Origin: Rubripirellula sp.
Lineage (GTDB): Bacteria > Planctomycetota > Planctomycetia > Pirellulales > Pirellulaceae
Assembly: GCA_965216875.1 (NCBI GenBank)
Contig: OZ244207.1
Coordinates: 4,320,001 to 4,384,000 of the forward strand
Direction: 5' to 3'
DNA: 64,000 nt
The notes under the pieces were generated by a model that worked only from the letters and a program-made list of their open reading frames with translations, did no database searches and was not told the origin of the DNA. The translations under genes were made by a program, and so were the position numbers. Position 1 is the stretch's first letter. Every line of letters begins with the position of its first letter. Shown one piece after another: positions 440-31,951 of the stretch.

Positions 440-491
440 TTGACATGACTACAAACTGTAGCCATACTCCATGACTACAGCTTGTAGCCAT
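440..491 (+). promoter_or_regulatory. Sigma70 promoter overlapped by two BlaI/MecI/CopY-type operator palindromes
   Basis: TTGACA (440-445), 17 bp, CATACT (463-468); ATGACTACA-AAC-TGTAGCCAT (445-465) and ATGACTACA-GCT-TGTAGCCAT (471-491) directly upstream of a BlaI-family gene. Confidence 0.8.
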
Positions 492-513
492 GCACTTTTT
501 GGGGAATCTCTCG

Positions 514-10758: not shown

Positions 10759-10867
10759 TGCGTCCACTCCGCGGCCCCTCGCAATTGCATCGTGCGGTAG
10801 GGGCATCCCGATGGTATCCTGATAAGTGCCCCAAAAACTTGTCTTCTTATCGACGCAGGAATGATTC

Positions 10868-12625
10868 ATGAGCCAGGCGATGCAAGATTTCACTGATCTG
10901 CTTCTAAAGCAGGGAGTGATCAGCCTTGACCAACTCTCCGAGGCCGAGGATGTCGCAAAAAACACCAATGCGGATGTCGGCGATGTCCTGATCCAAATGG
11001 AGTACGCCACCCCAGAAGAGGTCGCCAAAGCGCTCGCCCAACACCACAAAATCCCTTACGTCGACCTGCGATCGGCTCAAATCCCCGACTCGGTGATCGA
11101 ATTGGTCCCCGAATCGGTTGCCCGCGAAAACATGGTCCTGCCCTACAGCGAGGACGAGGGGGCCCTGAGAATCCTGATCGCCGACCCGTTCGACCTCGAA
11201 ACGATCGAAAAACTCCGCTTCATCCTGAATCGGAAGATCGAAACGGCCCTGGCGCCGAAGGAATCGATCCAAGGGGCGATCAACAAGTACTACGGTCAAG
11301 TCGAAGGGGAATCGGCTGACTCGATGCTGCAGGAGTTCACCGACACGGCCATCGACTTCACCGAGACCGACGCGGACGCTGAAGTGGCCGAGGAGACGGT
11401 CGATGACAGCAGCGCTCCGGTCATCCGCCTGGTCAACCTGATGATCCAGGAAGCGGTCCAATTGCGTGCCAGCGACATCCACGTCGAGCCGTTCGAGGAC
11501 CGGGTGCGAATTCGTTACCGAATCGATGGCGTCTGCGTCGAACGCGAATGTGCCCCTCGCCGTATGCTGGCCGCGATCATCGCCCGCATCAAGATCCTCT
11601 CCAAGATCGACATCTCCGAGAAACGACGCCCCACTGACGGGCGGATCAAGATCACCGTTGGCGACAAGCAGCTCGACCTCCGCGTCTCGATCATCCCGAC
11701 CAACCACGGCCAGTCGGCGGTTATGCGTCTGCTGGACAAGGACAACATCAAAGTGGGGGTCCGTCAGCTCGGCCTCTCCGAGCGCGACTTCCGCAACTTC
11801 AACTCGCTCATCCGCCGGCCCAATGGCATCATTTTGGTGACAGGCCCAACGGGGTCGGGAAAGACCACCACGCTGTACGCTGCACTCAATGCTCTCAACC
11901 GCCCCGACCGCAAAGTGATCACGGCTGAGGACCCGGTCGAGTACTACCTGCCAGGCATCAATCAGGTCGAAGTGAAACACAACATCGGCCTCGACTTTGC
12001 GATGATCATTCGGGCCATGTTGCGACAGGCCCCCAACATCATCCTTGTCGGTGAGATGCGTGACCACGAGACGGCTTCCATGGGAATCCAAGCCTCGCTC
12101 ACTGGACACCTGGTATTCAGTACCCTGCATACGAACGACGCGCCCAGTGCTGTATCACGAATGGTGGACATCGGTGTACCATCCTATATGGTCGCTAGCA
12201 GCGTGATTGCGATCCTTGCCCAGCGATTAGTGCGAACGATCTGCCCCCGCTGCAAGGTACGATACACACCACCCGAAACGGTGCTGTCCGACACCGGCAT
12301 TCCACCCGAGATGATCAAGCAAGCCGAGTTCGCCAGAGGCAAGGGATGCGCCTATTGCGGACGCAGTGGCTACCGTGGCCGAATCGGCATCTACGAACTG
12401 ATGCTGATCAACAACAGGATCCGCGAAATGATGTTCAAAGGTGCTAGCACAAACGACCTTCGCATCGAGGCGATAAAGAATGGCATGTCAACACTTTACG
12501 CCGATGGCATGCTGAAAGCTGTCCGTGGGATCACGACCTTTGAAGAGGTCTACCGAGTGGCCAAAAAGACCGAGACCGAGTCACTCGCCTTTTCGCATAT
12601 CGTCAAGGACCTCGACTCGCTGTAG
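10868..12625 (+). CDS. PilB/GspE family assembly ATPase (copy 1)
   Basis: ASDIHVEP, GPTGSGKTTTLY, TAEDPVEY, LRQAPNIILVGEMRD, GHLVFSTLHTN, CPRC...CAYC. Confidence 0.95.
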   Translation: MSQAMQDFTDLLLKQGVISLDQLSEAEDVAKNTNADVGDVLIQMEYATPEEVAKALAQHHKIPYVDLRSAQIPDSVIELVPESVARENMVLPYSEDEGALRILIADPFDLETIEKLRFILNRKIETALAPKESIQGAINKYYGQVEGESADSMLQEFTDTAIDFTETDADAEVAEETVDDSSAPVIRLVNLMIQEAVQLRASDIHVEPFEDRVRIRYRIDGVCVERECAPRRMLAAIIARIKILSKIDISEKRRPTDGRIKITVGDKQLDLRVSIIPTNHGQSAVMRLLDKDNIKVGVRQLGLSERDFRNFNSLIRRPNGIILVTGPTGSGKTTTLYAALNALNRPDRKVITAEDPVEYYLPGINQVEVKHNIGLDFAMIIRAMLRQAPNIILVGEMRDHETASMGIQASLTGHLVFSTLHTNDAPSAVSRMVDIGVPSYMVASSVIAILAQRLVRTICPRCKVRYTPPETVLSDTGIPPEMIKQAEFARGKGCAYCGRSGYRGRIGIYELMLINNRIREMMFKGASTNDLRIEAIKNGMSTLYADGMLKAVRGITTFEEVYRVAKKTETESLAFSHIVKDLDSL

Positions 12626-13302
12626 GCCTGCCCAAAACCACAGGACCAGCCGCATCACCACCGAGCCAACGAAAGCCACCGGCGCGAGCACCACACCCTC
12701 TCGCCTAAGGGGTTCGGCGGCAACACCTCCCGCCTTCGATTTCGCAGTTCGATGGGAGGTCGAAAGGCATGCGAGCCTGACGGACGGGGCGCACTAAGTG
12801 CGCGCTGAAACCGATTTTTGGTCCGTTTTTTTGGACGATGACGCCTGGAGGGCAATAATGTTGCCACTGACCGGGAATCGAAACGGAAAATCATCGCCTA
12901 ACAGCATTGGCTTTCTGTGGTCCCCCCGACCTTGTCTCGAACCGGCCAGAGGAAGTTTGCCACGACGACAAACCCCACCGAGCTCGACCTTATCCTTTTC
13001 GCCGCTCGGTCCATCGCGATATCAAACGATCCATTGGATCTAAACATAAATACACCGTCCTAATCTCATTCACTCGCGCAGCATGACCGCTGCACCTTGC
13101 TTCCACTTTATGTCCCAGTTCCCAACAAGCTCGCCCGCGAGCCTTGCCGGGTGATGTGCCACACCCCATCACAGCGGCATTAGCAAGCAAATCGGCTAGT
13201 GGTTGGTTACATTGTCGAGCCAACCGTGAGATAGCTCACCTTGGATCTGGATGACATTTTGTAGGCGAGCAACACACGCATCACACATAGGAGAGACGCG
13301 CC

Positions 13303-14412
13303 TTGGCCACCGTTCTTATTGACAAGTTGCTGCAGGCAGCCATCAAGCAGGGCGTGAGCGATATCCACATTGTGGTCGGCCAACCGCCAGTGTTCCGTCT
13401 TCACGGACGCATGCGGAAGCTGGAAACCAAGACGCTCGACGCCGAAGACGCTGTGGCGCTGATGAAGAGCATCACGCCGGAGCGTTGCCAACGTGAACTT
13501 CAGGAAGCGGGAAGCACTGACTTTGGCTTCGCATTTGGCGAACAAGCTCGGTTTCGTGTTTCCGTTTTCAAACAGCGCGGCTTCATCTCGATGGTGCTGC
13601 GTCAAATCCCCAACGACAAACTCACGCCCGAACAGCTCGGTTTGCCCGAGGCGGTTGTGAAGATGGTTCACCGGCCTCGCGGATTGTTCCTGGTCACCGG
13701 CCCGACCGGGTCCGGAAAGAGTACGACGCTGGCAAGTTTGATCAACCTGCTCAACGAAACACTCGACCATCACATCATCACGATCGAAGACCCGATCGAG
13801 TTTTACCACGACCATATTCAAAGCACGATCAACCAGCGTGAAGTCGGCGTGGACGTGCCAAGCTTCTCCGAAGCCATTCGCCGTGCGTTGCGGCAAGACC
13901 CCGACGTGATTCTCGTCGGCGAGCTTCGTGACCTCGAAACCATCGAAGCTGCCATTAGTGCTGCGGAAACGGGTCACATCGTTTTCGGCACCCTGCACAC
14001 CAACAGCGCTCAAGGCACGGTCAACCGGATCATCGACGCGTTCCCTGGAAACCTGCAGGACCAGATTCGAACTCAGTTGGCCAGCACGTTGATCGGCGTG
14101 GTCGCACAAACGCTCCTGCCGCGTATCGGTGGCGGCCGATTGGCTGCGTATGAAGTTCTTGTTGTCACGCCCGGCGTTGCCAACCTGATTCGTGAAAACA
14201 AAACGTTCCGAATCAACAGTGCGATGCAGACAGGTGCCAAGTTCGGCATGCAGCTGATGGATGACGCACTCTTTAGCCATTGGCAAAACGAATTCATCAC
14301 GGTTGAAGACGCCCTTTCAAAGGCACATCGTCCTGACGACTTGGCCAAACGCATCGTCCAAGCACGCCGCGGGTTGGCCGATGATCCAATTCCGGTTCCC
14401 GAAGACGAATAG
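13303..14412 (+). CDS. pilT: Type IV pilus retraction ATPase PilT
   Basis: SDIHIVVGQPP, GPTGSGKSTTLA, NQREVG, ALRQDPDVILVGELRD, VANLIRENK; AGGAGA RBS before TTG. Confidence 0.95.
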   Translation: MATVLIDKLLQAAIKQGVSDIHIVVGQPPVFRLHGRMRKLETKTLDAEDAVALMKSITPERCQRELQEAGSTDFGFAFGEQARFRVSVFKQRGFISMVLRQIPNDKLTPEQLGLPEAVVKMVHRPRGLFLVTGPTGSGKSTTLASLINLLNETLDHHIITIEDPIEFYHDHIQSTINQREVGVDVPSFSEAIRRALRQDPDVILVGELRDLETIEAAISAAETGHIVFGTLHTNSAQGTVNRIIDAFPGNLQDQIRTQLASTLIGVVAQTLLPRIGGGRLAAYEVLVVTPGVANLIRENKTFRINSAMQTGAKFGMQLMDDALFSHWQNEFITVEDALSKAHRPDDLAKRIVQARRGLADDPIPVPEDE

Positions 14413-14502
14413 ATCCGGCTGCCGAAGCTGAATCCATAGCCGCCTCAAAACGGCGACCACGAAACAGTTCACCCCAAAACCTCATAAGCACTCCGACAAA
14501 AC

Positions 14503-16215
14503 ATGGCTCCTCGTCGCATCGGACAGATTCTTGTCGACCTTGGTTTTTTGACCGACGACCAACTTGAGGTTGTTCTTGAGGAACAAGAGCAACAGCCAGG
14601 TGCATTGCTCGGCAAGATCGCTGAAGACATGCAGCTGATCACGGATGAACAACTCATCCAGGCGTTGGCCGAGCAGATGTCGATGCAGACGATCTCGCTC
14701 GAAGACATCACGCTTGATGCAGAAGTCTTGGAAAAGGTTTCTGAAACGATGGCTCAGCTTTACCGAATCATCCCGATCAAGTTTGAAAACGACACGCTGA
14801 CCGTTGCAACCTGCGACCCACAAAACCTGACGATCCAAGACGAACTACGTACGTTCCTTGGCTACGAAATCGTGATGATCGTGGCGACCGAACGCGACGT
14901 GCTGCAAACGATCAGTCGTCACTACGACAGCGAAGCCGAGAGTGTCGAAAAACTTGTCGCAGAACTCGCTGCCGACGAAGAACTCAAAGCCGCCATTTCT
15001 GCACTGGAATCGGAAAAGTTCAACATCACCGACGCCGAGGCCCTTGCCGATTCGGCACCCGTGCGAAAGCTGCTCAACATGGTGATGCTGTTGGCGATTA
15101 AAGACCACGCCAGCGACATTCACTTTGAACCGTTCGAAGATGAGTTCCGAATCCGCATCAAAGCGGAAGGCGTGCTCTACGAAATGGTCCCGCCGCCACG
15201 TCACCTCGCCTTCGCGATCACGACGCGAATCAAGGTGATGGCCGACTTGGACATCGCTGAACGCCGTATGCCTCAAGACGGCCGGATCGAACTGATGGTC
15301 GGTGGTCACCCGGTCGACCTTCGCGTCAGCGTGCTGCCGACGATCTTTGGCGAAAGCGTCGTCATGCGGATTTTGGACCGCTCGGTCGTCAACCTGTCGC
15401 TCGAAAATGTCGGGATGGACGAGTCGATGCTCGGGTCCTTCCGAAGTGCGATCGACCGGCCCAACGGAATTGTGCTGGTCACTGGCCCAACGGGAAGCGG
15501 CAAGACAACGACGCTCTATTCGTCGCTTACCGAACTGAATGACATCAAGGATAAGTTGATCACGACCGAAGACCCGGTCGAATACGACATCGATGGCATC
15601 GTGCAGATCCCGATCGATACGGATGTTGGCGTCACGTTTGCCGGTTGTTTGCGAGCGATCTTGCGGCAAGACCCCGACACGATTCTTGTCGGTGAAATCC
15701 GTGACCTTGAAACGGCCGAAATCGCGATCCAAGCCGCGCTAACCGGCCACTTGGTCTTTAGCACGTTGCACACCAACGACGCTCCTTCGACGGTCACCCG
15801 ATTGAAGGACATGGGCATTCAACCGTTCATGATCTGTGCGACGGTCGAAGCAATCCTTGCCCAGCGTTTGGTGCGTCGAATCTGCACCAAGTGCCGCGAA
15901 GAAACCAAAGTCACCACGTCGATGTTGCACGACCTTGGCATGACCAAGGAAGAGGCGGCCGGCAAAAAGTACTTCAAAGGGACCGGTTGCGATCAATGCA
16001 ACAACACCGGCTACAAAGGCCGCATCGCTCTATTTGAACTGATGGTCCTGAACGACAAACTCCGCGAGATGATTCTCAGCAACGCGTCGACCGACGAATT
16101 GCGAGACGAAGCAATGCGGTACGAAATGGTCCCACTGCGCCAGTTCGGAATGTCCTTGGCCGAAGACGGAATCACCACCTTGGATGAGGTGATTCGAGAG
16201 ACGGTGGAAGAATAA
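14503..16215 (+). CDS. pilB: PilB/GspE family assembly ATPase (copy 2) with MshEN-type N-terminus
   Basis: RIGQILVDLGFLTDDQLEVVLEEQ; LDIAERRMPQDGRI, GPTGSGKTTTLY, LRQDPDTILVGEIRD, CTKC...CDQC. Confidence 0.93.
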   Translation: MAPRRIGQILVDLGFLTDDQLEVVLEEQEQQPGALLGKIAEDMQLITDEQLIQALAEQMSMQTISLEDITLDAEVLEKVSETMAQLYRIIPIKFENDTLTVATCDPQNLTIQDELRTFLGYEIVMIVATERDVLQTISRHYDSEAESVEKLVAELAADEELKAAISALESEKFNITDAEALADSAPVRKLLNMVMLLAIKDHASDIHFEPFEDEFRIRIKAEGVLYEMVPPPRHLAFAITTRIKVMADLDIAERRMPQDGRIELMVGGHPVDLRVSVLPTIFGESVVMRILDRSVVNLSLENVGMDESMLGSFRSAIDRPNGIVLVTGPTGSGKTTTLYSSLTELNDIKDKLITTEDPVEYDIDGIVQIPIDTDVGVTFAGCLRAILRQDPDTILVGEIRDLETAEIAIQAALTGHLVFSTLHTNDAPSTVTRLKDMGIQPFMICATVEAILAQRLVRRICTKCREETKVTTSMLHDLGMTKEEAAGKKYFKGTGCDQCNNTGYKGRIALFELMVLNDKLREMILSNASTDELRDEAMRYEMVPLRQFGMSLAEDGITTLDEVIRETVEE

Positions 16216-16298
16216 GCCGTCACCCAACAGACCCAGCACGGAAAACGCACCCGCGGAAAGCCCTAAAGATTAGAGCCTTTTTAATCGGTACCTGAACC

Positions 16299-17738
16299 AT
16301 GCCTACTTATCAATTCGAAGCGATGGACGCGACCGGACAAGAGATCCGGGACGAGATCGACGCGGCCAACGAAGAAGAGGCGCAAACCACCATTCGCCAG
16401 ATGGGATACTTCGTCACGAAGATCTCCGTCAAAAAGCAAGCGGCCGCAGCCGCCGGTGGTAAAGCATCCAAGAAACGCAGCTTTGGCTTCGGTGGTGCCA
16501 AGACAAAACACATCTGCGCGTTTACGCGTCAGCTTTCGATTCTGCAAGACGCCGGCCTGCCGATTCTTCGCAGCCTCAAGATCCTCGAAAACAACCAAAA
16601 GCCGGGCAAGCTTAAAAACGCTCTGATGGATGTTTGCGAAGAGATTGAAGGGGGTGCCACGCTCAGTGAAGCGATGAGTAAATGCCCCAAGGTCTTCACG
16701 CGTTTGTACGTGAACATGATCAAGGCGGGTGAAGCCGGTGGTGCACTCGAAACCATTCTTCAACGTTTGGCCGACTTCCTTGAGCGGGCCGAATCGCTCA
16801 AACGAAAAGTCAAAGGCGCGCTGATCTACCCGATCATTGTTGTTTTGGTTGCTGCGTTGATCCTGACGTTCATCATGATCTTCATCGTGCCAACGTTCGA
16901 AACGATGTTTGATGAGTTCGGCCTGACGCTGCCCGCTCCAACGATCCTGCTGATCGCCATGAGCAACTACATATCGGGCTACTGGTTCTTGCTGATCGCA
17001 ATGCCGATCTGCTTGCTGATCCTGGTCAAGTTGATACGAAAGTTCCGGCATGGGCGGATGGGCTTTGACATGTTCATCATCAAGGTGCCCATCTTCGGGG
17101 GCCTGGTTGAAAAGAACATCTTGGCTCGAACGACGCGAACCCTCGGCACGTTAGTCAGTAGTGGTGTGCCGATTCTGGAAGCGATCAATATCACTCGCGA
17201 AACATCGGGCAACGCAATGTTCGAGCGAATGTTCACGCGGGTGAACGAGTCGATTCGCGAAGGGGAAGTGATCAGCAAGCCGCTGCGTGAATACAGCGTA
17301 CTCGGCTTCCACCCAATGGCATTTGTCTTCTGGGGACTGTTTGGGTCGTTCCCAGGTTGGATCGTTTTGTCGATCGCGCTCACAGCGACGGGCACCAAGC
17401 TTGATGATGGGACGATGGTGCAAACACTCACCATGCTGGCAGGTTACTTGATCGGCGGTGGTGCCTTGCTCGCGTGCCTTTGGGGCATGACCAAAATCAA
17501 ATCACGTGTTGTTGATGACCTCGTCGTCAACATGGTGGACGTCGGTGAAGAGACCGGTGAGCTCGACACGATGCTTTACAAGGTCGCCGACACCTACGAC
17601 GAAGAAGTACGAACGATGACCGATGGTCTGACCGCACTGATGGAACCGCTGATGATCGTGTTCCTCGGCTTGGCAGTTGGTTTCATCGTGATCAGTTTGT
17701 TCATGCCGCTGGTCGAGTTGATCACCGGTTTGACCTGA
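16299..17738 (+). CDS. pilC: PilC/GspF family platform protein
   Basis: FTRQLSILQDAGLPILRSL, YVNMIKAGEAGGALETIL, KVKGALIYP, MVDVGEETGELDTML, LMEPLMIVFLG. Confidence 0.95.
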   Translation: MPTYQFEAMDATGQEIRDEIDAANEEEAQTTIRQMGYFVTKISVKKQAAAAAGGKASKKRSFGFGGAKTKHICAFTRQLSILQDAGLPILRSLKILENNQKPGKLKNALMDVCEEIEGGATLSEAMSKCPKVFTRLYVNMIKAGEAGGALETILQRLADFLERAESLKRKVKGALIYPIIVVLVAALILTFIMIFIVPTFETMFDEFGLTLPAPTILLIAMSNYISGYWFLLIAMPICLLILVKLIRKFRHGRMGFDMFIIKVPIFGGLVEKNILARTTRTLGTLVSSGVPILEAINITRETSGNAMFERMFTRVNESIREGEVISKPLREYSVLGFHPMAFVFWGLFGSFPGWIVLSIALTATGTKLDDGTMVQTLTMLAGYLIGGGALLACLWGMTKIKSRVVDDLVVNMVDVGEETGELDTMLYKVADTYDEEVRTMTDGLTALMEPLMIVFLGLAVGFIVISLFMPLVELITGLT

Positions 17739-17759
17739 TCCCAAACAAGAAAGCGTTGG

Positions 17760-17787
17760 GTCGGCCGAGACGAGGGTCTCGGCCGAC
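17760..17787. other. Perfect 12-bp stem-loop between pilC and the first prepilin gene
   Basis: GTCGGCCGAGAC-GAGG-GTCTCGGCCGAC followed by A-runs on the + strand. Confidence 0.7.
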
Positions 17788-17901
17788 AAAACGAAAAACA
17801 CTCATCCATAAGTCGTCCGTCACTGTTGATGGCGGAGGGCGCGACACGGTTGTCGCGCAAGAAACGCACAGCATCCTTTTCCAAAACGATCGAGTCGAAG
17901 C

Positions 17902-19245
17902 ATGAACGCTAACTCAGCATTGGCACATCAACGACACCTTACGCGGCGCGGTTTCACACTCGTCGAAATCCTGACGGTCATCGTGATCATCGGCATCCTC
18001 ATGGGGCTGCTGATCCCAGCGGCAACCGCGGCCTATCGCAATGCGAAAGAGACTGCGATTCGGACCGAAATCGGCGTCATCGAACAATCCCTCGAGTCGT
18101 ACAAGCTCCAGCACGGTGACTACCCACCTGACTTTTCAGATTGGGGCGCCGTCGATCGCCACTTCCGCAAAGCCTTTCCCAACATCAACGACAACGAATT
18201 GCGAATCCTCGCGCAGTTCACGCACATGAACAGCATGCATCAATTGTGCTCGGCGGCTACTGGGGTCAGCGACCCACGCACGTCGTCCGCCTTTGATCAT
18301 TACCCACACGCGATCGATCGCGCCGAAGCCTTGCTGTTTTGCTTGGGTGGGTTCAGTCGAGACAAGGAGCGACCGTTCACCGGTGCGGGTGGACCGCTGG
18401 TGCTGATCACCGGCGCCGCCGACCCTTACACCTCGACTCCCGCAAACGACGATTACGCCAAGTACCAGTACAACGCCGAGCGCGACGAAGGCTTCCTGCC
18501 CGTAAAGCCCGAACAGCTCAGCATGACACTTTTCGTGGCCAACACAGGACCATTGGCGGCGGGGTACGGCATGAGCGCTCCCTATGTCTACTCAACCGAC
18601 GAGGGCGACACCAACACAAACTCGCTTGGATTCACTCTCTTCAACGACCCGTTCCCAACCTACCGTCCAAAGAACTCAGAGTTGCCGATCGTCTACTTTG
18701 CGTCGCGCACTTACAACTCAGCCTGGGGCATCAACTACTCGAGCGCACCAGCTTGGGCCTCAGCATCAACGGTGCACCACAGCCAAAACGTGTACCTTCC
18801 GCCTGGCAGTATCGACGCAACAGGTGTTGCGCGACCCTATGCGTCAAACGTGGTCGATACAACTCCGCCTGCAACCATTCAAGGTTTCTCAGTGCAGCCA
18901 GGCGGGACGGTCTTGAAGTTTGCTGCGGATGGAAAATTCCAGCTCATCTCTGCCGGTCTCGACGACAACTACGGCGGCATTATCAGTCAAGACATCGGCG
19001 ATCACATGATGGCGCCCGCTGCAACTGGCATCAGCGTCTACCCCAGTGGCGAAGCCTACTGCCCGCTCTTGGATTTCACCTCAACGTCTTACGGAACCTT
19101 CACAACGATCACCGCCGTCAACAAATTCAACGACGACCAAGTGCTCCAGCGGAATTATGCGGCCTCAGCCGTCTACCGCGCCAATCCACAGCTCGACAAC
19201 ATCACAAACTTCACGACACGCACGATCGAATCAGATCTTCCTTAA
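17902..19245 (+). CDS. Large prepilin-type N-terminal cleavage/methylation protein (GspG-like, 447 aa)
   Basis: RRG|FTLVEILTVIVIIGILMGLLIP; LESYKLQHGDYPP; FQLISAGLDDNYG; DNITNF. Confidence 0.9.
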   Translation: MNANSALAHQRHLTRRGFTLVEILTVIVIIGILMGLLIPAATAAYRNAKETAIRTEIGVIEQSLESYKLQHGDYPPDFSDWGAVDRHFRKAFPNINDNELRILAQFTHMNSMHQLCSAATGVSDPRTSSAFDHYPHAIDRAEALLFCLGGFSRDKERPFTGAGGPLVLITGAADPYTSTPANDDYAKYQYNAERDEGFLPVKPEQLSMTLFVANTGPLAAGYGMSAPYVYSTDEGDTNTNSLGFTLFNDPFPTYRPKNSELPIVYFASRTYNSAWGINYSSAPAWASASTVHHSQNVYLPPGSIDATGVARPYASNVVDTTPPATIQGFSVQPGGTVLKFAADGKFQLISAGLDDNYGGIISQDIGDHMMAPAATGISVYPSGEAYCPLLDFTSTSYGTFTTITAVNKFNDDQVLQRNYAASAVYRANPQLDNITNFTTRTIESDLP

Positions 19246-19304
19246 CGCCCGTTGGTTGTCTGTCTGGCCGAGTCAGTCTCTGACCCAGTTGCGGTTTATT
19301 GGTT

Positions 19305-20495: not shown

Positions 20496-20520
20496 ACCGA
20501 GGAACCGACTGGACGAGCTG

Positions 20521-21924: not shown

Positions 21925-21926
21925 CG

Positions 21927-23435: not shown

Positions 23436-23504
23436 TTGACTCAGTCTCGTGACCTTTCTCTTCTTCGTTTCTCGCTGACCTGTGCACCACACAGGGAGTG
23501 AACC

Positions 23505-26500
23505 ATGAACCTACGCAACTCATCAAACGACATGCGTATCACATCTGCATCTCAACAACGCCGCGGTATCGTGCTGCTGGTCGTCCTGGGAATGCTGACT
23601 CTCTTCAGCATGCTGGCGGTTTCGTACTTGGTTTTTTCAGCCAGGCACAAATCGGCCGCCGAAGCGATGAATCGCGCCGAAACCTCCGCCATTGATTCGG
23701 GGTCGCTGCTTGACCAAGCGATGAACACCGCTTTGGTTGGTTCCAATGGGCCATCGAGCGCCTTGTGGGGACATTCGCTGCTAGGCGACCTTTACGGGAT
23801 GCGCGACGGCGTCGCCAGTGAACTCACCATTCCTTCGGCCTACGCGCACGCTGGTAACAATGACATCGCCCCCGCGGCGCTGCTGGACGGAAATTTCATT
23901 CGCTTCCCTACGGAACTCTTTCGAAGCGGGTCAAACACCTATCCATTCCGTCGAAATGAACCGGGACGCCCACAACGCGAATACCCCGCATCGGCGAGTC
24001 CGTCTTTTCCAATTGACGATCAAGTGACTGGTCGATTGCTGACTTTCCGAGAAGGTCCACTCGCCAACTTGACGATGGAGATTGTCCGCTACTTTGGCAA
24101 TCACTTGAACTTACCCGCGACCAACCCGCGCCGTGGCCTGAGTGGGCAAGTCGTCGTCGACGTACGTCCCCACTTGAACACTCAGATCGAACTCAACGGG
24201 CGAACGCTGACGTTGCGTGAGTGGATCAATCTTGCTGCCACCACGTCGTTCACGATTTCGGAGTTGTTCTACGACCAAAATGCAATCGCCGGAAGCAGCG
24301 CAGTTCCGTTGTCGGACTTTTACGTCAATGGTCGCATCCTGAACGGCCCCGGACTTGGCTGGGATCACGTCCGTGATAGCGCCATGACGGTGACAACCAT
24401 GGAACACAATCTCAACGATGTTGTCTCGACAACGGTTGAGTTGTTTCCGACTCCTTCAGGTCCAGCCACTGGTCGCTCGGGAGTCAACTTCAGCAACGCC
24501 AACGGACGTGACCTGCCCGTCGCTTTGCAGGGCCACTATGGGCTGCACCGACTTGATCCAGCCAACAACTCGACCATCGATGACTTTATCAATGACCTTC
24601 CCCCAGGAGATGTTGACGAGGGCTTCGATGCGCCCACCTATGACGACCTGTGGTTGAGCTACTTCCCCAATGATCCGGAACTTGGTCAGGCAACACCCTC
24701 ATTTGTTCGCCCGGCGCTCATCAACTGGCTGATCAACCAGAAGGGCGATCTGACCATGCTGTCACAGCAAGAGCGCACTTCGATTCTGCGAGCGATTCAG
24801 CGCAGCACATTGCGTCCACTTCCAATCTCGAACAGTAGCGGAACGATCCCGAACGCGAGTACCGGGACGTACACTCTCAATTTCTCAGAGTTCACTGGTA
24901 GTAATGGCTTGCTTGGCCCCGGCGCCACCACATTGGGAACTTTGCCAATCGATCCAACGTCGGTGACAGCCGCTCAAATCCTTCGAATCGCACGAGCCTT
25001 GGCTGGGTCTGACTCCAACGGCGACGGTATTCCGGATAGTTGGGACGTCGACACCGATGGTGACGGAATCCCTGATTCCGTTTGGGTCGATAGCGGACTT
25101 GCGTTGATCGAGTCGCCCGAAGGCCAACTGATCAAACCGATGGTCGCCTACAAGATCGAGGCGTTGTCGGGTCGCGCAGATGTGAATCGTGCGGGCAACA
25201 CTGCCCAGGCGATCAACCAAATCAACGCAACGGTTGCAAACACCGTCGGTCCCGTTCAACAGAATTCGCCCACTGGAACGCCCGCGGTGAATCCCGCCAC
25301 GGTGCCGAACGCTTACATTCAAAACGATGTCCCATCAGGGTTTGGATACGGCCCCGCTGAAATCGATCTCCGCGCAATCTTCCTACCCCAGTACGCCACT
25401 GGGAACGGAATGCGTGAACTCATGAAGCTCCGATACAACCAATTCGATTTCGGTGCTCCAGTGGTCAATTATTACTCGCCCGGCGAGCATTACACTCAGC
25501 TGACCGGTTCGTCCAACGACCTGCTTGGCCGTTTCCGACATCCTTCGCGTCCCAACTTTTTTGCCCCGGACACACGTCACGGCCTTCCCTATGACCCGCA
25601 TGGTCGAGCCACCGTCGCGCTCGGTGTTGACGGCGGCCTGATGGTGAATCGCTCTTCCTACCGTGTCGGGAATTCGGGCCCCAGTAATCTTGGCCCCACG
25701 GGCGGCCAGATCAACGACGACCCCTACGAGATTGTGTTCAACGCATCGACGGCTCCCGACGCAACACTCAAGTATGCCGACCTTGAACCTGTCTTGCGAT
25801 TCAATGATTACGATCGCGATCTGCTTGGAAGCCGTTTGGTCGATTTGATCAATAACTATCACGCAGATCCATCAGCCGTCCCCGATCAGCTCGAAGCTGT
25901 GCGCAAGTTGTTGGCCGATTCGGTCACCACCAGCAGCAGTTCTGCGGCAACCGTGACCGGACTCCTGCCATCGGAATGGCGTAATTCAACGGCTGCTTCG
26001 CAAGGCGCGTTCTCGGCCAACAATGTTTTCTGGGCCAATATCGCGGGAGCGAACGCCGCTCAACGTAATGCACGGATGTGGGAGTTGCTCGCACCCGAAC
26101 TGCGTCGTGGAAGCAAATTCAACCTGAACCGTCCGTTCGAAAACGGAGTGGATGACGATGGAGACGGCGTCATCGACGACCCCGAAGAGATCGGAAACAT
26201 TGCGCCCTCTCCAGCACCCCCGCGAGTCTTCTACAACGGAACGCGTTGGGCAACCGATCGTCATGATGTCACGCCAGCGGAACCGGGCCGCAACAGCCGC
26301 GAGACCTTTGCACGCCACCTGTACTTCATGGCATTGAGCCTGATTCGCGATGCCAATGGTGGTACCGAATTTGACTTCCCCCATGACCCGTCAATCGTCC
26401 CTGGTGGCTTCGCGGGCATCGGCGGTTTGACGTTCCAACAGGAATACAACGCTTGGAAGATCGCCCAGTGGGCCATCAATGTGGTCGACTTCCGCGACCA

Positions 26501-29500
26501 AGACGGGATCATGACTCGCTTCCGATATGACCCCAACCCGTTTGACGGCTGGGACGTCGATACCTCGGACCCCACGACCTACCGAACCGTCTGGGGAATG
26601 GAACATCCCGAGCTGACGCTGGACGAGTCCCTTGCATTCCATGATCGCCGTTTGCGTGACACGGCGGAAGACACGACCATGCAACGTCGGATCTCCGGCG
26701 GCACTTTCCAAGACGATGACCCGGACCAGTGGCGAATTCCTCAGGGCAGCCTGTTCCTTGAAGTTCGATCAACGCGTTCTCCGCAGGAACTTCTCAATCC
26801 ACCTGCTTCCGTCAACGATGACCTCCGCGCAACCCGTTGGGCCGCCCCGGTCGAGCTGTACGAACGCGTCAACAATCCGGTCACAGGCGTTGACGAACTC
26901 GTTCTGCAATTGGACCTCGAAGCTCCCGACATGAACCCCGTCTGGCGCGTCGCGATTAGCGAGATCCACGAGGGCACGTCGCCTGCAGCACGCCCTGAAC
27001 GCTGTCCCGACTTTTTGTTCAAACCTGCTGGCAGCTTGCTGCCAACCGACACCAATGCAGGAGGTGTTAACCTCAATCGAGAAACAACGATTCCTGAGCC
27101 GAACCAACCCAACTTTTTCGAAGCACCGGTTGCCGGTGGCATTGAACGAGTCATTTGGTTCACCAATCGCGACCCCGATGCCGATGCCGATGGCACGGTC
27201 GACTTCACGGTCCCCGCCGACTCAGCCGAAGTGGGCCGCATCTTCTACAACCGTTTCACAACGACCGACTATTCCACGGTGACCGGTGGTGGCGCAGCCC
27301 TGCGTGGTGGCCAATACGCTGTCATCGGACCACGCCAAATCACACCGCTTGGCTCCCTTGAAACCCATGCCACTTCAGGCCCAACGCTGGATGCAAACAA
27401 CGCGCCTCAAGTCAATTACACCGACTACGAGTCGACTCAGCGGATCGGCATCACCGCTGGCGGGTTGGCGATGACTGACATCGCTGGCAATGCAACAACC
27501 CCCACGGCAGACAATGGTACAGGCGTTGCCAACGCAACCATTCAAGCACCACTCGGTGTGGTTGCCGCTGCAAATGCTCCGCTGAGTTGGGGTGGTGGAC
27601 AAGTGGGCGTCAATGTTTCGGAACCACTGCCGTGGGCAACGCCAGACCTTGCTGCAACGCCCCCACGACGATACTACCCACAACCGACACGATCGCTTGA
27701 CCCAACACAGGGGTATCCCGTCGACAGCTACTACGACTATTCGAACGCAATGGGGCAACTCCCTGACACGCCGTTTGACTCCCAGACGTACGCTGAACTC
27801 GATCGTGCCTTTGGTGCCCTCGGGCAACAAACGGGAACGCGAACTCACTTCAAGACGGCTTACCTACAACGCTTGGCTGACCCCACCGAGGGCTATCATC
27901 CAACGGACAATCCTTACATCACCGTCGACTACATCGCGATTGACTTGACAGTCTTTAACGGCGCGATGACAAACGACCAAATCACCAACTCGGGCGGGAC
28001 AACCCAATGGCGTGACGAAGCCGACATGGATCCGTTCAACGCAGCACCTGCCGAACGATTTGCAACTCGCTACAAAACAGGAAGCAACTGGGATAACGAT
28101 TCGACGACGACTCAAGCGAATCAGATCTTCTCGATCAACACCTTTGCACCCGAGTTGAGCGATCCGCAGACCACGACCGGTGGCAACATCGCTTTCTTCA
28201 ATCACAAGTTGCATCTCGATCCACTCGTTGACCCTGACGCTGGCGGCACGGTCAACGCCACCGCCGACCGCACCGCTCACTCGAGCTCGCTCGGCTACCT
28301 CAACGCGTCGTTTGGTCAGCGTTGGGGCCAAGCCGGCACCGCGAACGCTTCGATGGGGCGGTACGTTGGATTGCCGTTCGATACCTTCGGTGCAAACGTC
28401 CAATGGCTCAATCGGGACTTCGTTTCGCCCATCGAATTGGCTTGGGTGCCAACCTCAGCTCCGGGGCGATTGGGTGCCGAGTTCGGCACAGCAACCACGG
28501 AATCGGGCATGCCAGCCTCGCCAGATCCGTATGACGATGCGAACAACAGTACCGCCACAACACTTGGCCGCTACGACTACAACCAACAGTTCCCACACCT
28601 GTGGAACTTTCTAAGCTCGAACGTGAATGACTTCAGCATGTCGCCCAACATGCTGAGAATTCTCGAGTGGGTTGAAGTACCGCCACCTTTTGATGCGGAC
28701 ATCGACTTTGTCTCTACCGACCAAGATGTCCTTGACCCAACGGTCCAACCCGTGTTCCCGGCGACCTGGAATTACGCAACCTTTGGCACAGCCCCATCGG
28801 CCAATCCCGAAACTTGGAACAACTCAGCTGGTCCACCGGGACAGAACGCCTTCTGGTTGAATCAAGTGACGACCGAAACGCTGCGTCCACCATTCAACAT
28901 TCGTTTCCCGAACTACCGGACGGGAATGGTGAACCTGAACGTGATCAAGAACAAGAACGTGTTCAAAGCGGTCATGAATGGGTTCTCGACATCTTCCGAG
29001 CGAGCGGGGGATGGTGCATTCTGGGACGACTTCATCGCCAGTCGCCGTGGTTACGCCACGCCAGCGGGTGATGCAACGGGCAGCAACCCGCTACACAGTT
29101 CGTTTAGCGCCTATTTCCCGACGCAACAGGCAGGTGCCTTCCGACCAGCGAATACTGCGGACGTTGGCATCTCATACTCGGCACCCACAGGCGCAACGGC
29201 ACCAGCGCCGCCCAATCCAATCATGCGTCGTGACCCCGTTCAAGGCACGATCCTGCGGAAGGGACCACTTGCCAACCGCATGCTGTTCCGCCGCGACCCC
29301 ACCATGGCTCCCGTGCTGAATGCCAACGCACAATCGCCCGAGAGAAGCGTGGTTCATCAACAACTGGGGGCCTCTCGCTTGGCAAACCTGACCTCGAACC
29401 AATCCAACATCTTTGCGGTTTGGATCACCGTCGGCTTCTTTGAAGTTGACCCATCCACTCTGCTTGTTGGGCCGGAGGTTGGTCTTGACCTCGGACAAAC

Positions 29501-29612
29501 TCAACGTCCGCGAGGATTCTACATCATCGACCGCAGCGTCCCCGTGATGTACCGACCAGGCGAGATCAACAACACCGAAGGCGTCATTCAACTGTCGCGA
29601 AAACTCAACTAG
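23505..29612 (+). CDS. Giant PilX/GspK-like prepilin-type protein (2035 aa)
   Basis: QRRG|IVLLVVLGMLTLFSMLAVSY (no Glu5); DxDGDG motifs; C-terminal LTSNQSNIFAVWITVGFFEV...RGFYIIDRS. Confidence 0.85.
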   Translation: MNLRNSSNDMRITSASQQRRGIVLLVVLGMLTLFSMLAVSYLVFSARHKSAAEAMNRAETSAIDSGSLLDQAMNTALVGSNGPSSALWGHSLLGDLYGMRDGVASELTIPSAYAHAGNNDIAPAALLDGNFIRFPTELFRSGSNTYPFRRNEPGRPQREYPASASPSFPIDDQVTGRLLTFREGPLANLTMEIVRYFGNHLNLPATNPRRGLSGQVVVDVRPHLNTQIELNGRTLTLREWINLAATTSFTISELFYDQNAIAGSSAVPLSDFYVNGRILNGPGLGWDHVRDSAMTVTTMEHNLNDVVSTTVELFPTPSGPATGRSGVNFSNANGRDLPVALQGHYGLHRLDPANNSTIDDFINDLPPGDVDEGFDAPTYDDLWLSYFPNDPELGQATPSFVRPALINWLINQKGDLTMLSQQERTSILRAIQRSTLRPLPISNSSGTIPNASTGTYTLNFSEFTGSNGLLGPGATTLGTLPIDPTSVTAAQILRIARALAGSDSNGDGIPDSWDVDTDGDGIPDSVWVDSGLALIESPEGQLIKPMVAYKIEALSGRADVNRAGNTAQAINQINATVANTVGPVQQNSPTGTPAVNPATVPNAYIQNDVPSGFGYGPAEIDLRAIFLPQYATGNGMRELMKLRYNQFDFGAPVVNYYSPGEHYTQLTGSSNDLLGRFRHPSRPNFFAPDTRHGLPYDPHGRATVALGVDGGLMVNRSSYRVGNSGPSNLGPTGGQINDDPYEIVFNASTAPDATLKYADLEPVLRFNDYDRDLLGSRLVDLINNYHADPSAVPDQLEAVRKLLADSVTTSSSSAATVTGLLPSEWRNSTAASQGAFSANNVFWANIAGANAAQRNARMWELLAPELRRGSKFNLNRPFENGVDDDGDGVIDDPEEIGNIAPSPAPPRVFYNGTRWATDRHDVTPAEPGRNSRETFARHLYFMALSLIRDANGGTEFDFPHDPSIVPGGFAGIGGLTFQQEYNAWKIAQWAINVVDFRDQDGIMTRFRYDPNPFDGWDVDTSDPTTYRTVWGMEHPELTLDESLAFHDRRLRDTAEDTTMQRRISGGTFQDDDPDQWRIPQGSLFLEVRSTRSPQELLNPPASVNDDLRATRWAAPVELYERVNNPVTGVDELVLQLDLEAPDMNPVWRVAISEIHEGTSPAARPERCPDFLFKPAGSLLPTDTNAGGVNLNRETTIPEPNQPNFFEAPVAGGIERVIWFTNRDPDADADGTVDFTVPADSAEVGRIFYNRFTTTDYSTVTGGGAALRGGQYAVIGPRQITPLGSLETHATSGPTLDANNAPQVNYTDYESTQRIGITAGGLAMTDIAGNATTPTADNGTGVANATIQAPLGVVAAANAPLSWGGGQVGVNVSEPLPWATPDLAATPPRRYYPQPTRSLDPTQGYPVDSYYDYSNAMGQLPDTPFDSQTYAELDRAFGALGQQTGTRTHFKTAYLQRLADPTEGYHPTDNPYITVDYIAIDLTVFNGAMTNDQITNSGGTTQWRDEADMDPFNAAPAERFATRYKTGSNWDNDSTTTQANQIFSINTFAPELSDPQTTTGGNIAFFNHKLHLDPLVDPDAGGTVNATADRTAHSSSLGYLNASFGQRWGQAGTANASMGRYVGLPFDTFGANVQWLNRDFVSPIELAWVPTSAPGRLGAEFGTATTESGMPASPDPYDDANNSTATTLGRYDYNQQFPHLWNFLSSNVNDFSMSPNMLRILEWVEVPPPFDADIDFVSTDQDVLDPTVQPVFPATWNYATFGTAPSANPETWNNSAGPPGQNAFWLNQVTTETLRPPFNIRFPNYRTGMVNLNVIKNKNVFKAVMNGFSTSSERAGDGAFWDDFIASRRGYATPAGDATGSNPLHSSFSAYFPTQQAGAFRPANTADVGISYSAPTGATAPAPPNPIMRRDPVQGTILRKGPLANRMLFRRDPTMAPVLNANAQSPERSVVHQQLGASRLANLTSNQSNIFAVWITVGFFEVDPSTLLVGPEVGLDLGQTQRPRGFYIIDRSVPVMYRPGEINNTEGVIQLSRKLN

Positions 29613-29626
29613 CCGAATCGACTGAA

Positions 29627-31951
29627 ATGTTTTTAAGCACTCGAACCTCCAAACGCGGCTTCACCCTGGTGGAATTGCTGATTGCGATGGCAATCACACT
29701 TCTGCTGATGGCGGGCTTGGCCAAAGCCTTTGCCATGATTGGTAACAGCATGAAGGAAGGCCGCAGCAAGTTGACGCTAAGCGGAAAACTTCGTGGCCTC
29801 AGTTTTCGACTCCGCAGCGACCTTCGTTCACGTACCGTCCAAGCGTCGCCACCGATTCGCGCAACCGACGACCAAGGCTACTTCATGTACTACGAAGGGC
29901 CACTTTCCGAACATTCGATGGCGTTGTTCGGCGATGAGGCGCTTCGATACACGCGTGGTGGCGACGAGATTGGTTCGTCATCACCTGCCTTTGCAACCAC
30001 AGTCGATGGCCCAACCTATCGTCGACACAGCCGATTTGGTGACATTGATGACTATGTCGCCTTCACGGCCGAAGCGCCGGCAGGCAGCTGGTTTACTGGA
30101 AAAGTACCGGCCTACATGGTCGAGGATGACCCCACCATGGCTGACCCGATGGAACCGCGCACCATCCGGTCGAAATACGCCGAGATCATCATGTGGGCTT
30201 CTCCTACATGGCAAACCGACGAATCAACCAACGACCTGGTCTACAGCCCCGCGCCGAGCGGAATGCCCGCCTACGTTGACGACAACAACGACTTGATTCC
30301 AGATTCGGTCACCATTCATCAACGGGTGTTGTTGATTCGACCTGACCTCAACTCGTTCGGAAACATCACAACAACGAATGCAGGATCAGCATTTGAATCC
30401 GACTACCTACGCACCCTCGGCGGTGGCGGTCCCGCAAATGTCCCACCGGCAATCCAAGGGATCTACCCCATTGGTAACCCCAACATAGCAGCTGGCAGCC
30501 GGTACTACCCAAGCTACGTCGATCCGGGCAGCCTGACGCAACCCCATCTCATGTTCAACAGCCATTGGCTTGTGGGCATGGCGCCGGTCCATCATTTCTT
30601 TGACATTTCGCTGCGTCGCATTGTTCATCCCGAAACAGGTGAACCGACCGAGTATGTCGCTGCCAATTCGCTTGAAGACTTGACGGAACCGCATAACCGT
30701 TTCGGCCACGTTCGATACCCAGGTCGCTACTTTGGTCTAAGCGGTGCAAACGACAATGCGACATCCATGCCTCTGTTGGCCGTTGCTTGGAACGATGCGC
30801 TATTGCGGCGTGCGACGCCTCCTGCGTGGTTCCCAACGGGATACCCAAGCCCGACCACCTTGTACAATTCGAGCACTGGTGCACGCACCTCGCTGTTCAA
30901 CGGTTGGTTGCTGCCACATTTCTCCCTTGGCGACCCCAACCCTCCCACAGCAGACTCGTCGAACTGGCAACGCAACTATTTGGGAACGCGTGATCCTCGC
31001 TGGGACCGAACCGGCGAAGACATCATCGCCGCGAACGTCCACTCGTTTGACGTGAAGGGTTACGATTCGATCGCACCTGTTTTCTTGACCTCTGGTTTTG
31101 ATGGGCAACCCGGACGGGCAGGAGTTGATGATGACAGCAGCGGAAGTGCGGACACGTCCGTTCTCACTGCAAATCAGCAAGTCATGTCTGAACTTGGAGC
31201 GATCGGCAGCGATGATGTTCTTGTCCAAATGGGCGACATTGCAATCAACGAAGTGATGAAGTCGTACATCACCGACCCCAGAGATGTCGCGAGCTACACC
31301 GCCGCCGAGCTTGCCCAGCGGCGGTTCCAAATGCTCGCCAACACGGGAGACTTTGTCGATCTGATGTACCCGCTTCAAGCGGGTGGCCCGCTCCTCGACC
31401 TGTATCGTGAAGGCCCTGGACCTTACGCGACGACGCCACCGGCCACACCTCCAACGCCGCCACTCTCAGTGGCGCAGCAGAACGCTCAAAACAACTTCAA
31501 CAACTTCCTTGTCACGGACCTGTCGGGTTGGCCACTTTCGGTCGGTACGTTGAGTTCGATGAAACGCAGCGGAAAACTCGTTCACACGAACCCGCTCAAT
31601 GGAAGCTTTGCCTTCATGCAACCCTGTTTTGATACGTGGAGCGACCGGTACGAGAGCGATGGCTTCGACCAAACCGCAAATCTCACCGGCGAATTGCGTG
31701 GAAACAACGGCTCGGTCTGGGTCCTCTACGATGAACAGGCTGGCTTCCCGCCACGTGTTCCTCGAATCGCCCCGAGCGCAGCCGCAAACCGAATTTTTGC
31801 GATCGACTCTTCCAAGTACGACTCAGAACAACGCGAAACGAGCGCTCCGTTCGAGTCACCATTACCGGCCGTCAGCATTACGATTCGCTTGGCCGATCCG
31901 GCGACGGGCGAAATCGCGCAAAGCACGGTGATCGAAGACTTGCTCGACTAG
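29627..31951 (+). CDS. Large prepilin-type protein, PilW/GspJ-like (774 aa)
   Basis: KRG|FTLVELLIAMAITLLLMAGL; LRSDL after the helix; DIIAANVHSFDVK; AVSITIRL. Confidence 0.88.
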   Translation: MFLSTRTSKRGFTLVELLIAMAITLLLMAGLAKAFAMIGNSMKEGRSKLTLSGKLRGLSFRLRSDLRSRTVQASPPIRATDDQGYFMYYEGPLSEHSMALFGDEALRYTRGGDEIGSSSPAFATTVDGPTYRRHSRFGDIDDYVAFTAEAPAGSWFTGKVPAYMVEDDPTMADPMEPRTIRSKYAEIIMWASPTWQTDESTNDLVYSPAPSGMPAYVDDNNDLIPDSVTIHQRVLLIRPDLNSFGNITTTNAGSAFESDYLRTLGGGGPANVPPAIQGIYPIGNPNIAAGSRYYPSYVDPGSLTQPHLMFNSHWLVGMAPVHHFFDISLRRIVHPETGEPTEYVAANSLEDLTEPHNRFGHVRYPGRYFGLSGANDNATSMPLLAVAWNDALLRRATPPAWFPTGYPSPTTLYNSSTGARTSLFNGWLLPHFSLGDPNPPTADSSNWQRNYLGTRDPRWDRTGEDIIAANVHSFDVKGYDSIAPVFLTSGFDGQPGRAGVDDDSSGSADTSVLTANQQVMSELGAIGSDDVLVQMGDIAINEVMKSYITDPRDVASYTAAELAQRRFQMLANTGDFVDLMYPLQAGGPLLDLYREGPGPYATTPPATPPTPPLSVAQQNAQNNFNNFLVTDLSGWPLSVGTLSSMKRSGKLVHTNPLNGSFAFMQPCFDTWSDRYESDGFDQTANLTGELRGNNGSVWVLYDEQAGFPPRVPRIAPSAAANRIFAIDSSKYDSEQRETSAPFESPLPAVSITIRLADPATGEIAQSTVIEDLLD

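What the first reader, a model, noticed from the sequence alone, without database searches (positions are those of the whole stretch)
10868..31951. Type IV filament locus built only from giant pilin-like subunits, with two extension ATPases, PilT and a modified platform
Seen: pilB1, pilT, pilB2, pilC, then six co-oriented genes each starting with a class III signal (RRG|FTLVE, RRA|FTLVE, HRG|MTLVE, RAG|VTLME, RRG|IVLLV, KRG|FTLVE), of about 447, 396, 467, 502, 2035 and 774 aa. Established: typical pilins and pseudopilins are about 120-350 aa; PilT marks retractile pili rather than T2SS; the minor set FimT/PilV/PilW/PilX (GspH/I/J/K) forms the tip. Inference: this is a full G,G,H,I,K,J-like set in which every member is enlarged several-fold. 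That suggests a retractile filament with a very large tip (about 4600 residues in total), analogous to the uncharacterised Verru_Chthon cassette, and a candidate for planctomycete surface fibres or polymer capture. No small major pilin, prepilin peptidase, PilMNO or secretin is in the window. This is the best candidate here for an uncharacterised system.
Basis: partly seen in the sequence, partly recalled or inferred. Interest (0 to 1): 0.8.

Follow-up and report, generated by a model that had tools for sequence, protein, structure and literature searches.

The report
Planctomycete core giant-pilin fibre machine
These ten genes encode the motors, platform and six oversized pilin-like subunits of a type IV filament machine kept by nearly all sampled Planctomycetia; a likely orthologous operon resists transposon insertion in the model planctomycete, and the machine likely builds the unexplained surface fibres of these bacteria.

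Summary
pilB1-pilT-pilB2-pilC is followed by six class III genes (mature 430, 387, 453, 486, 2014, 763 aa). The cap-like gene matches 142 of 151 sampled class genomes. The extra mass is predicted to sit inside the pilin core. A predicted I-J pair passes (0.73, best control 0.00). The missing parts lie elsewhere in the genome: a PilM fusion operon (150 of 151), a large secretin and PilD. A published transposon screen in Planctopirus limnophila flagged an operon of the same layout (Plim_0410-0401): nine of ten genes are strongly depleted, as are pilM and a secretin, with pilD also on its essential list; the PilT-position gene is borderline. Orthology is inferred from order, labels and lengths, not sequence. 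Best reading: the core fibre-assembly machine, with a giant tip, a shaft possibly including DUF1559 pilins, and accessory retraction. An export piston is the main rival. Function untested; GspK homology is suggestive only. The scan found this operon before on other genomes. New variant of a known kind.

The parts
10868..12625 (+). PilB/GspE-type extension ATPase 1 (MshEN domain, weaker c-di-GMP motif)
   Evidence: PF00437, PF05157; TIGR02538 608 bits below cut-off 676; NF053729 37.6 vs cut-off 38; Walker A/B and two CxxC
13303..14412 (+). PilT retraction ATPase
   Evidence: TIGR01420 447 bits over cut-off 319; Walker motifs and GVANLIR motif
14503..16215 (+). PilB/GspE-type extension ATPase 2 with c-di-GMP-binding motif
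   Evidence: PF00437, PF05157; NF053729 47.3 over cut-off 38
16299..17738 (+). PilC/GspF platform with a Pirellulales-type hydrophobic insert in the second domain
   Evidence: PF00482 in three stretches; insert in 9 of 9 Pirellulales, 0 of 7 others aligned
17902..19245 (+). G-like pilin 1, mature 430 aa, extra mass predicted inside the pilin core
   Evidence: PF07963, best NCBIfam GspG 55 bits below cut-off; model pTM 0.76; ranks 1-27 of 39 structural matches are pilins, spanning about residues 25-429
19299..20495 (+). G-like pilin 2, mature 387 aa
   Evidence: PF07963; conserved DGWG, SAGPD and DNI motifs, recalled as GspG-like; profile's best PDB hit PulG, N-terminus only
20521..21924 (+). 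H/FimU-like pilin, mature 453 aa (ORF open from 20398; ATG at 20521 is the likely start)
   Evidence: PF07963; best weak hits TIGR02596 and GspH; operon position
21927..23435 (+). I/PilV-like pilin, mature 486 aa
   Evidence: Class III motif, invariant E5; position; a homologue pairs with the J homologue in prediction
23505..29612 (+). Giant K/PilX-position subunit, mature 2014 aa, no E5, four DxDxDG motifs; likely tip cap
   Evidence: 142 of 151 class genomes; no Pfam; compact homologue models with N-terminal helix and C-terminal strands; GspK link weak
29627..31951 (+). J/PilW-like pilin, mature 763 aa; lies after K here, before K outside Pirellulales, often unlinked in Pirellulales
   Evidence: PF07963; weak PRK10557 and GspJ hits

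Best explanation
This operon encodes the motors, platform and six enlarged pilin-like subunits of a nearly class-wide, mostly single-copy type IV filament machine that likely builds the surface fibres of planctomycetes through a large secretin encoded elsewhere. Inferred steps: PilD cleaves the six prepilins; H, I, J and the giant K form a priming complex that ends up as a cap of about 3700 residues; the two PilB ATPases, one likely gated by c-di-GMP, drive addition of the G-like subunits and probably some of the many DUF1559 pilins on the PilC platform braced by the PilM-fusion operon; PilT retracts the fibre and could pull bound polymers towards the periplasm. Assembly, not retraction, would be the step needed for growth, either because the fibre-secretin unit pins the two membranes together or because unassembled pilins are harmful. 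Shown here: genes, order, conservation, partner genes. Predicted: folds, I-J pair. Inferred: orthology to the transposon-depleted operon, the fibre identity, DUF1559 as shaft.
For: Canonical G-G-H-I-J-K order behind pilB-pilT-pilB-pilC (J before K in 20 of 21, motors or platform adjacent in 18 of 21 non-Pirellulales genomes). K match in 142 of 151 and PilM fusion in 150 of 151 class genomes; large secretin in 107 of 151 at E<=1e-60, and next to the pilM operon in 8 genomes by coordinates. T4aP-type parts: PilT and PilM pass their models. A separate small-pilin system with an ordinary 559-aa GspK exists in this genome and matches 103 of 151 class genomes. Pilin core for gene 1. I-J homologues: score 0.73, best control 0.00; the mark was reached by 116 of 157 solved and 2 of 215 mismatched pairs; runs share at least 79% of contacts, partner pLDDT at least 75; GspI-GspJ is a solved pair, so the pass may reflect likeness. 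P. limnophila screen: insertion index 0 to 0.0056 for nine genes, 0.022 for the PilT-position gene, flanks 0.128 and 0.27; pilM 0.006 and secretin 0.002, pilD-like gene on the essential list; back-computed lengths fit. DUF1559 gene right after K in 8 of 21 genomes. 12-nm fibres at crateriform structures bind dextran (PMC5394234, passages); T4P-like tubules cross the envelope in Pirellulaceae (PMC8303584, passages).
Against: No experiment ties these genes to any fibre. Plim_0410-0401 orthology was not checked by sequence (one search did not list that protein). The paper's own per-gene calls (Sup. Data.xls) could not be read, and it warns that condensed DNA can mimic essentiality. G-like genes resemble GspG more than PilA and the order is T2SS-like. 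The giant K shows no significant match to GspK: hhalign 0.7% and 26%, Foldseek rank 7, E 0.054. Structural Z for gene 1 is only about 5. The DUF1559 link is 2 of 66 loci in Pirellulales and absent here, and kin are not independent. Polymer uptake should not be needed on glucose-peptone medium. The genome has two more PilT-family genes, which could mask loss of this pilT.
Confidence: 0.5

Rival explanations
1. A T2SS-like exporter: the subunits form a short periplasmic endopilus whose giant tip loads folded proteins or envelope material into the large secretin. Loss is lethal because cargo is needed outside or toxic inside. PilT only resets the piston.
For: Gsp-type order and GspG-like genes 1-2; assembly genes depleted while PilT is borderline; precedent of a T2SS scored essential by transposons in Vibrio cholerae (PMC7771236, search listing and start of abstract only); the screen's authors read the operon as secretion-related.
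Against: PilT kept between the two pilB genes across classes; PilM-type rather than GspL-type support; a separate conventional GspK system and a GspD-like secretin with seven N-domain stretches exist in the genome.
Confidence: 0.25
2. A mainly structural or morphogenetic machine: the giant complex stays in the envelope as the junction between inner and outer membrane (crateriform structure) or acts in budding, and any fibre is secondary.
For: Near-universal and mostly single-copy in the class; transposon depletion on rich medium; crateriform structures described as press-stud links between the membranes.
Against: The operon also occurs in other classes; no localisation data; full motor set including PilT implies dynamics.
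Confidence: 0.15
3. An ordinary T4aP for adhesion, twitching or DNA uptake with large subunits, whose transposon depletion is an artefact of polarity, DNA accessibility or slow colonies.
For: PilB, PilT, PilC, PilM, secretin and PilD are all present; the paper notes accessibility artefacts; R. baltica pilT, pilB, pilC and pilM are co-induced by salt (PMC2754498, passages).
Against: At least three unlinked loci are depleted with normal flanks; no small PilA in the operon; strict conservation is unusual for accessory pili (general knowledge).
Confidence: 0.1

Closest known systems
Type IVa pilus machine (PilB, PilT, PilC, PilMNOP, PilQ, PilD; minor pilins FimU/PilV/PilW/PilX)
   Same: Extension and retraction ATPases, platform, PilM, secretin, peptidase and an H-I-J-K-type set; MshEN domains.
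   Different: Two PilB; no small major pilin in the operon; all six subunits enlarged; PilM extended to 745 aa; secretin of 1183 aa without Pfam N-domains; likely required for growth.
Type II secretion system pseudopilus and GspI-J-K tip (3CI0)
   Same: Gene order G-H-I-J-K, GspG-like fold for gene 1, K without E5, predicted I-J pairing, mass inserted within the pilin core as described for GspK and ComZ (PMC8179133, passages).
   Different: PilT present; two G-like genes; K is 1000-2900 aa against 280 residues in the solved chain and does not hit T2SSK models; a conventional GspK system is encoded separately.
Plim_0410-0401 operon of Planctopirus limnophila (PMC10632474)
   Same: Ten genes with the same labels and fitting lengths (565, 370, 570, 419, 352, 370, 360, 468, unknown, 1599 aa).
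   Different: J precedes K there; PilC lacks the insert by length. The paper gives one paragraph and no mechanism, and does not call the genes a giant pilin set in the section read.
Akkermansia MUL2 / Amuc_1098-1102 pilus-like glycan-attachment locus
   Same: The partner PilM fusion scores best against the Amuc_1101 model; proposed role in glycan attachment and uptake (PMC13174399, passages).
   Different: Scores are far below cut-off (195 vs 650; secretin 65 vs 750); MUL2 as described has no giant G-H-I-J-K set.
Verru_Chthon cassette (TIGR02596, 02598-02600)
   Same: A minor-pilin set with one very large member in a sister phylum (recalled).
   Different: Gene 3 scores 30 vs cut-off 70; gene 5 has no hit to the cassette models.

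Membership tests
Type IV filament superfamily | Class III signal peptide pilins, PilB/GspE ATPase, PilC/GspF platform, prepilin peptidase | tested here: met
   peptidase lies outside the window
Type IV filament superfamily | Pilin fold (long alpha1 packed on a beta-sheet) | tested here: met
   Predicted for gene 1: ranks 1-27 of 39 are pilins, best Z 5.2, rmsd 3.5, 81 aligned. Genes 2, 3 and the window's own 4-6 were not folded
Type IV filament superfamily | Cleavage and methylation at G|F in vivo | not testable with these tools
   Needs N-terminal proteomics
Type IVa pilus | PilT retraction ATPase | tested here: met
   TIGR01420 447 vs 319
Type IVa pilus | PilM and a secretin | tested here: met
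   TIGR01175 154.5 vs 133; PF00263 over cut-off; both unlinked here, linkage inferred from other genomes
Type IVa pilus | PilB and PilQ equivalog models; PilN, PilO, PilP | tested here: inconclusive
   PilB 608 and 626 vs 676; PilQ 79 vs 284; the 599- and 664-aa genes after pilM hit nothing
Type IVa pilus | Small major pilin of PilA type in the system | tested here: inconclusive
   None in the operon; small pilins elsewhere mostly sit in other clusters; true major subunit unknown
Type IVa pilus | PilY1/PilC tip adhesin | not tested
   No search was run
Type II secretion system | No retraction ATPase | tested here: not met
   PilT sits inside the operon
Type II secretion system | G-H-I-J-K pseudopilin set in order | tested here: met
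   by position and weak profile labels; for I-J
GspK family | Match to PF03934, PF21687 or NF037980 | tested here: not met
   No hit for gene 5 or homologues; the genome's 559-aa GspK does hit
GspK family | Pilin core split by an inserted domain | tested here: inconclusive
   Compact homologue model (pTM 0.87) has helix 2-57, strands 163-186 and 966-1018; Foldseek lists 3ci0_K at rank 7, E 0.054; the wider structural search did not finish
Verru_Chthon cassette | TIGR02596/02598/02599/02600 over cut-off | tested here: not met
Akkermansia MUL2 complex | NF045709 and NF042912 over cut-off | tested here: not met
   195.5 vs 650 and 64.9 vs 750

The most novel reading that the evidence does not exclude
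The crateriform structure is a giant secretin-pilus machine.
Probability: 0.3. Interest if true: 0.9.

Novelty: new variant of a known kind. Interest (0 to 1): 0.68.

Why it matters
The molecular identity of planctomycete crateriform structures, their fibres and macromolecule uptake is a long-standing open question (PMC5394234 leaves it open in the passages read). This locus gives a short, named gene list in a genetically tractable model. A type IV filament machine with a retraction motor that appears necessary for growth would be unusual, and it offers a testable role for DUF1559, the largest paralogue family of P. limnophila (68 members, PMC10632474). It also extends the size range of tip pilins to 1000-2900 residues.

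Tried and rejected
Sequence searches of solved structures with the K profiles and the J profile found nothing meaningful; the G2 profile hit only pilin N-termini. Foldseek gave no E<=0.001 match for either model; the top rows for the K model (poxvirus beta-sandwiches, probability 0.12 or less) were treated as noise. The wide VIA search of the K model was still unfinished, so its result is unknown. Direct profile comparison of gene 5 with the genome's ordinary GspK failed. Motif counts used my own patterns, drawn from the alignments and from recalled GspK motifs, so they are circular and not counted as proof (all four in order in 11 of 20, 4 of 13 and 4 of 66 rows). Restriction to Planctomycetia, suggested by 0 hits outside the class in a phylum sample, was rejected after the operon turned up in other classes; a simple match to budding lineages is therefore not supported. 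A single orthologue of the K-linked DUF1559 gene was not found in this genome (best scores 42-76 bits). J's new neighbourhoods in Pirellulales contain no recurring filament genes that I recognised. Rfam found nothing in 9400-34000. The Atlas gave unnamed clusters and one lead under 0.9 (HHH_3 on 29% of members). Paper searches for the cassette name, DUF1559 and planctomycete pili showed no functional study of the operon; one search's term was read as one joined word, one search listed 25 of 203 papers, and most subscription papers are not searched. The primary MUL paper was not held.
Full report
Observation. The ten ORFs and six class III motifs are as described. Mature subunit lengths are 430, 387, 453, 486, 2014 and 763 aa. 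Four of six pass the N-methylation model; genes 4 and 5 hit nothing in Pfam or NCBIfam. PilT passes its model, both PilB carry MshEN domains, only PilB2 passes the c-di-GMP motif model, and all three have intact Walker motifs. The PilC insert is present in 9 of 9 Pirellulales sequences and 0 of 7 others aligned, so it is a late, order-level change. The closest named records for gene 5 are Pirellulaceae (best 66% identity).

Partners in the genome. The genome has 12 secretin matches, 4 peptidase matches in 3 genes, 2 PilM matches, 16 T2SSE matches and 60 DUF1559 match rows. The likely partners are a 745-aa PilM with a long C-terminal extension followed by 599- and 664-aa genes of no known family, a 1183-aa secretin and a 560-aa A24 peptidase. 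The PilM gene matches 150 of 151 class genomes, nearly always once. The secretin matches 107 of 151 at E<=1e-60; one family mostly falls under that cut-off (1 of 36). By coordinates the two lie within about 10 kb on one strand in 8 genomes (G201, G223, G227, G265, G269, G273, G300, G315). A separate small-pilin cluster with an ordinary GspK is also widespread (103 of 151), so the giant set is not simply the cell's only Gsp-like system.

Conservation and order. Gene 5 matched 37 of 41 relatives including this genome, 595 of 671 candidate stretches in a capped genome scan and, by its C-terminal profile, 142 of 151 class genomes, mostly once, mostly in open frames of about 1300-2900 aa (shorter ones also occur). 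The best 120 of 540 protein hits carry no Pfam domain and are unnamed or hypothetical. In 18 of 20 loci fetched from the order, pilC is followed by the pilins and K; one is a lone second copy and one ends at a contig edge. J follows K in 19 of 66 assessable Pirellulales loci (a set with repeated genomes) and otherwise lies elsewhere. In 21 genomes from other orders J precedes K in 20 (one not assessable), and motor or platform genes adjoin in 18. A phylum sample gave no hit outside the class with the C-terminal profile, but following the best pilC hit in 10 other-class genomes showed the operon with a K-position gene of 1019-1562 aa in 6, an unclear run of large ORFs in 1, the same layout with small pilins and no pilT in 1, and nothing in 2. 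Profiles link these families through short blocks: 100%, 96% over 47 columns, 94% over 54 columns.

Structure. The window's gene 1 models at pLDDT 69.6, pTM 0.76. Ranks 1-27 of 39 structural matches are pilins or pseudopilins, led by a Shewanella pilin (Z 5.2, rmsd 3.5, 81 aligned), EpsG (5.1, 3.7, 105) and PulG (4.9, 3.5, 116), with aligned ranges from about residue 25 to 429. Z is middling, but the pattern says the core uses both ends of the chain and the extra mass is inserted. Gene 5 is too long to fold; a 1019-aa homologue from G144 gave pLDDT 84.8, pTM 0.87 with a helix at 2-57, a hairpin at 163-186, a central beta-rich domain and three final strands. Foldseek found nothing significant: GspK is rank 7 (E 0.054) and lamin Ig-like domains reach probability 0.92, in line with sub-threshold LTD hits. 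GspK-like topology is therefore likely but not shown. The I and J homologues of G230 passed the complex test (0.73 against 0.00; 116 of 157 solved and 2 of 215 mismatched pairs reach the mark; at least 79% shared contacts; pLDDT at least 75), with J's last strand at the interface; as GspI-GspJ is solved, this shows likeness rather than binding.

Genetics in print. PMC10632474 (section 9 read whole, passages elsewhere, searches and one part of the supplements) describes Plim_0410-0401 as four type II secretion genes plus six planctomycete-restricted genes. Its COG labels are PulE/PilB, (0409 not listed), PulE/PilB, PulF, PulG, PulG, FimT, PilV, PilW, unknown. Insertion indices are 0.0041, 0.0225, 0.0041, 0.0056, 0.0038, 0.0027, 0.0009, 0.0028, 0 and 0.0006, with flanks at 0.27 and 0.128; the paper's section cut-offs are 0.013 and 0.022. 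All but 0409 appear in the figure that lists essential genes. So do a prepilin peptidase (index not looked up), a TPR-secretin (0.0019), pilM (0.0062; next genes 0.016, 0.011, 0.0026), a further PulG-like and a PilE-like gene, a second PulF and two ExeA genes. Lengths back-computed from the index fractions fit this operon and its partners (K 1599, PilT position 370, PilM 749, next 579 and 707, secretin 1566; control 406 against a listed 407). Orthology rests on these, not on sequence. The per-gene calls are in a file too large to read, which bears on the word essential.

Mechanism. Everything needed to assemble a filament appears depleted, at several unlinked places, while the retraction gene is only about fivefold depleted. 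On glucose-peptone medium that argues that assembly itself is what matters. A DUF1559 gene follows K in 8 of 21 non-Pirellulales genomes, from two families (script count 7 of 17 with a stricter flank rule, against 2 of 66 in Pirellulales), and the paper reports 68 DUF1559 paralogues of which two are essential. I infer that this machine primes with H-I-J-K and polymerises G1/G2 and DUF1559 pilins into surface fibres. Thick subunits would suit the 12-nm dextran-binding fibres at large crateriform structures (PMC5394234, passages) and the T4P-like tubules seen in Pirellulaceae (PMC8303584, passages); a sister-phylum pilus-like locus whose PilM model is the best hit for the partner gene is tied to glycan attachment (PMC13174399, passages). 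None of this is direct. An export piston remains plausible, with the V. cholerae T2SS as precedent (PMC7771236, listing and start of abstract).

Comparison and novelty. It works like a T4aP with a T2SS-ordered subunit set; it belongs to the type IV filament superfamily but fails the GspK, Verru_Chthon and MUL2 model tests and the no-PilT feature of T2SS. Insertions into a pilin core are known for GspK and ComZ (PMC8179133, passages), on a smaller scale. The motor genes are annotated in R. baltica (PMC2754498, passages) and Limnoglobus (PMC7397252, passages); predicted pilins were seen in Gemmata membrane fractions (PMC5287468, passages); PMC11131199 (passages) added only a cited report of pili aiding chitin adhesion. 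The searches listed under Tried and rejected found no functional study. Earlier notes of this scan describe the same operon on other genomes (seen after my own reading was set); they are not independent evidence. Verdict: real, conserved, new variant of a known kind, interest 0.68.

Noticed in passing
window 12626-13302: A 677-base gap separates pilB1 from pilT; similar gaps recur in relatives, fitting the paper's split of Plim_0410 from the eight-gene operon. No Rfam match.
   Followed up: partly
window 10412-10822: A 136-aa ORF with no Pfam hit lies just upstream of pilB1 on the same strand; no homologue was labelled in the fetched loci.
   Followed up: partly
L189:3119-10577 (G000:C1:4727119-4734577): A small-pilin G-H-I-J-K-L-M-like cluster with a 559-aa GspK and no ATPase, platform or secretin beside it; its GspK matches 103 of 151 class genomes and 0 of 36 in one family.
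   Followed up: partly
L190:6003-7055 and L197:8300-9526: Two further PilT-family genes pass TIGR01420; one sits next to a divergent GspE-like gene.
   Followed up: partly
L209:9575-18083 (G066): Same layout with two pilB and pilC but no pilT and small pilins (143, 64, 112, 186 aa, plus a 531-aa PilX_N protein with a DUF7305 domain): a possible unexpanded counterpart or an unrelated system.
   Followed up: partly
L175:6411-15400 (G280): The operon lacks both G-like genes: pilC is followed directly by H, I, J, K. Several Thermoguttaceae-titled loci show only one G-like gene.
   Followed up: no
L033:7721-12412 (G033): A second, stand-alone copy of the giant K gene outside the operon.
   Followed up: no
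L042, L044, L045, L054, L055, L057, L058, L059: Where J has left the operon it often sits beside the same conserved block (matches to this genome's 1116-, 332- and 140-aa genes near C1:5292879-5297649); that block was not annotated.
   Followed up: no
PMC10632474 supplement: Two ExeA-like ATPases (Plim_0854, Plim_2231) and a second PulF (Plim_3389) are also on the essential list; their link to this machine is unknown.
   Followed up: no
window 490-4976: BlaI-type repressor and a 1347-aa BlaR1/M56 peptidase fusion with carboxypeptidase-regulatory-like repeats.
   Followed up: no
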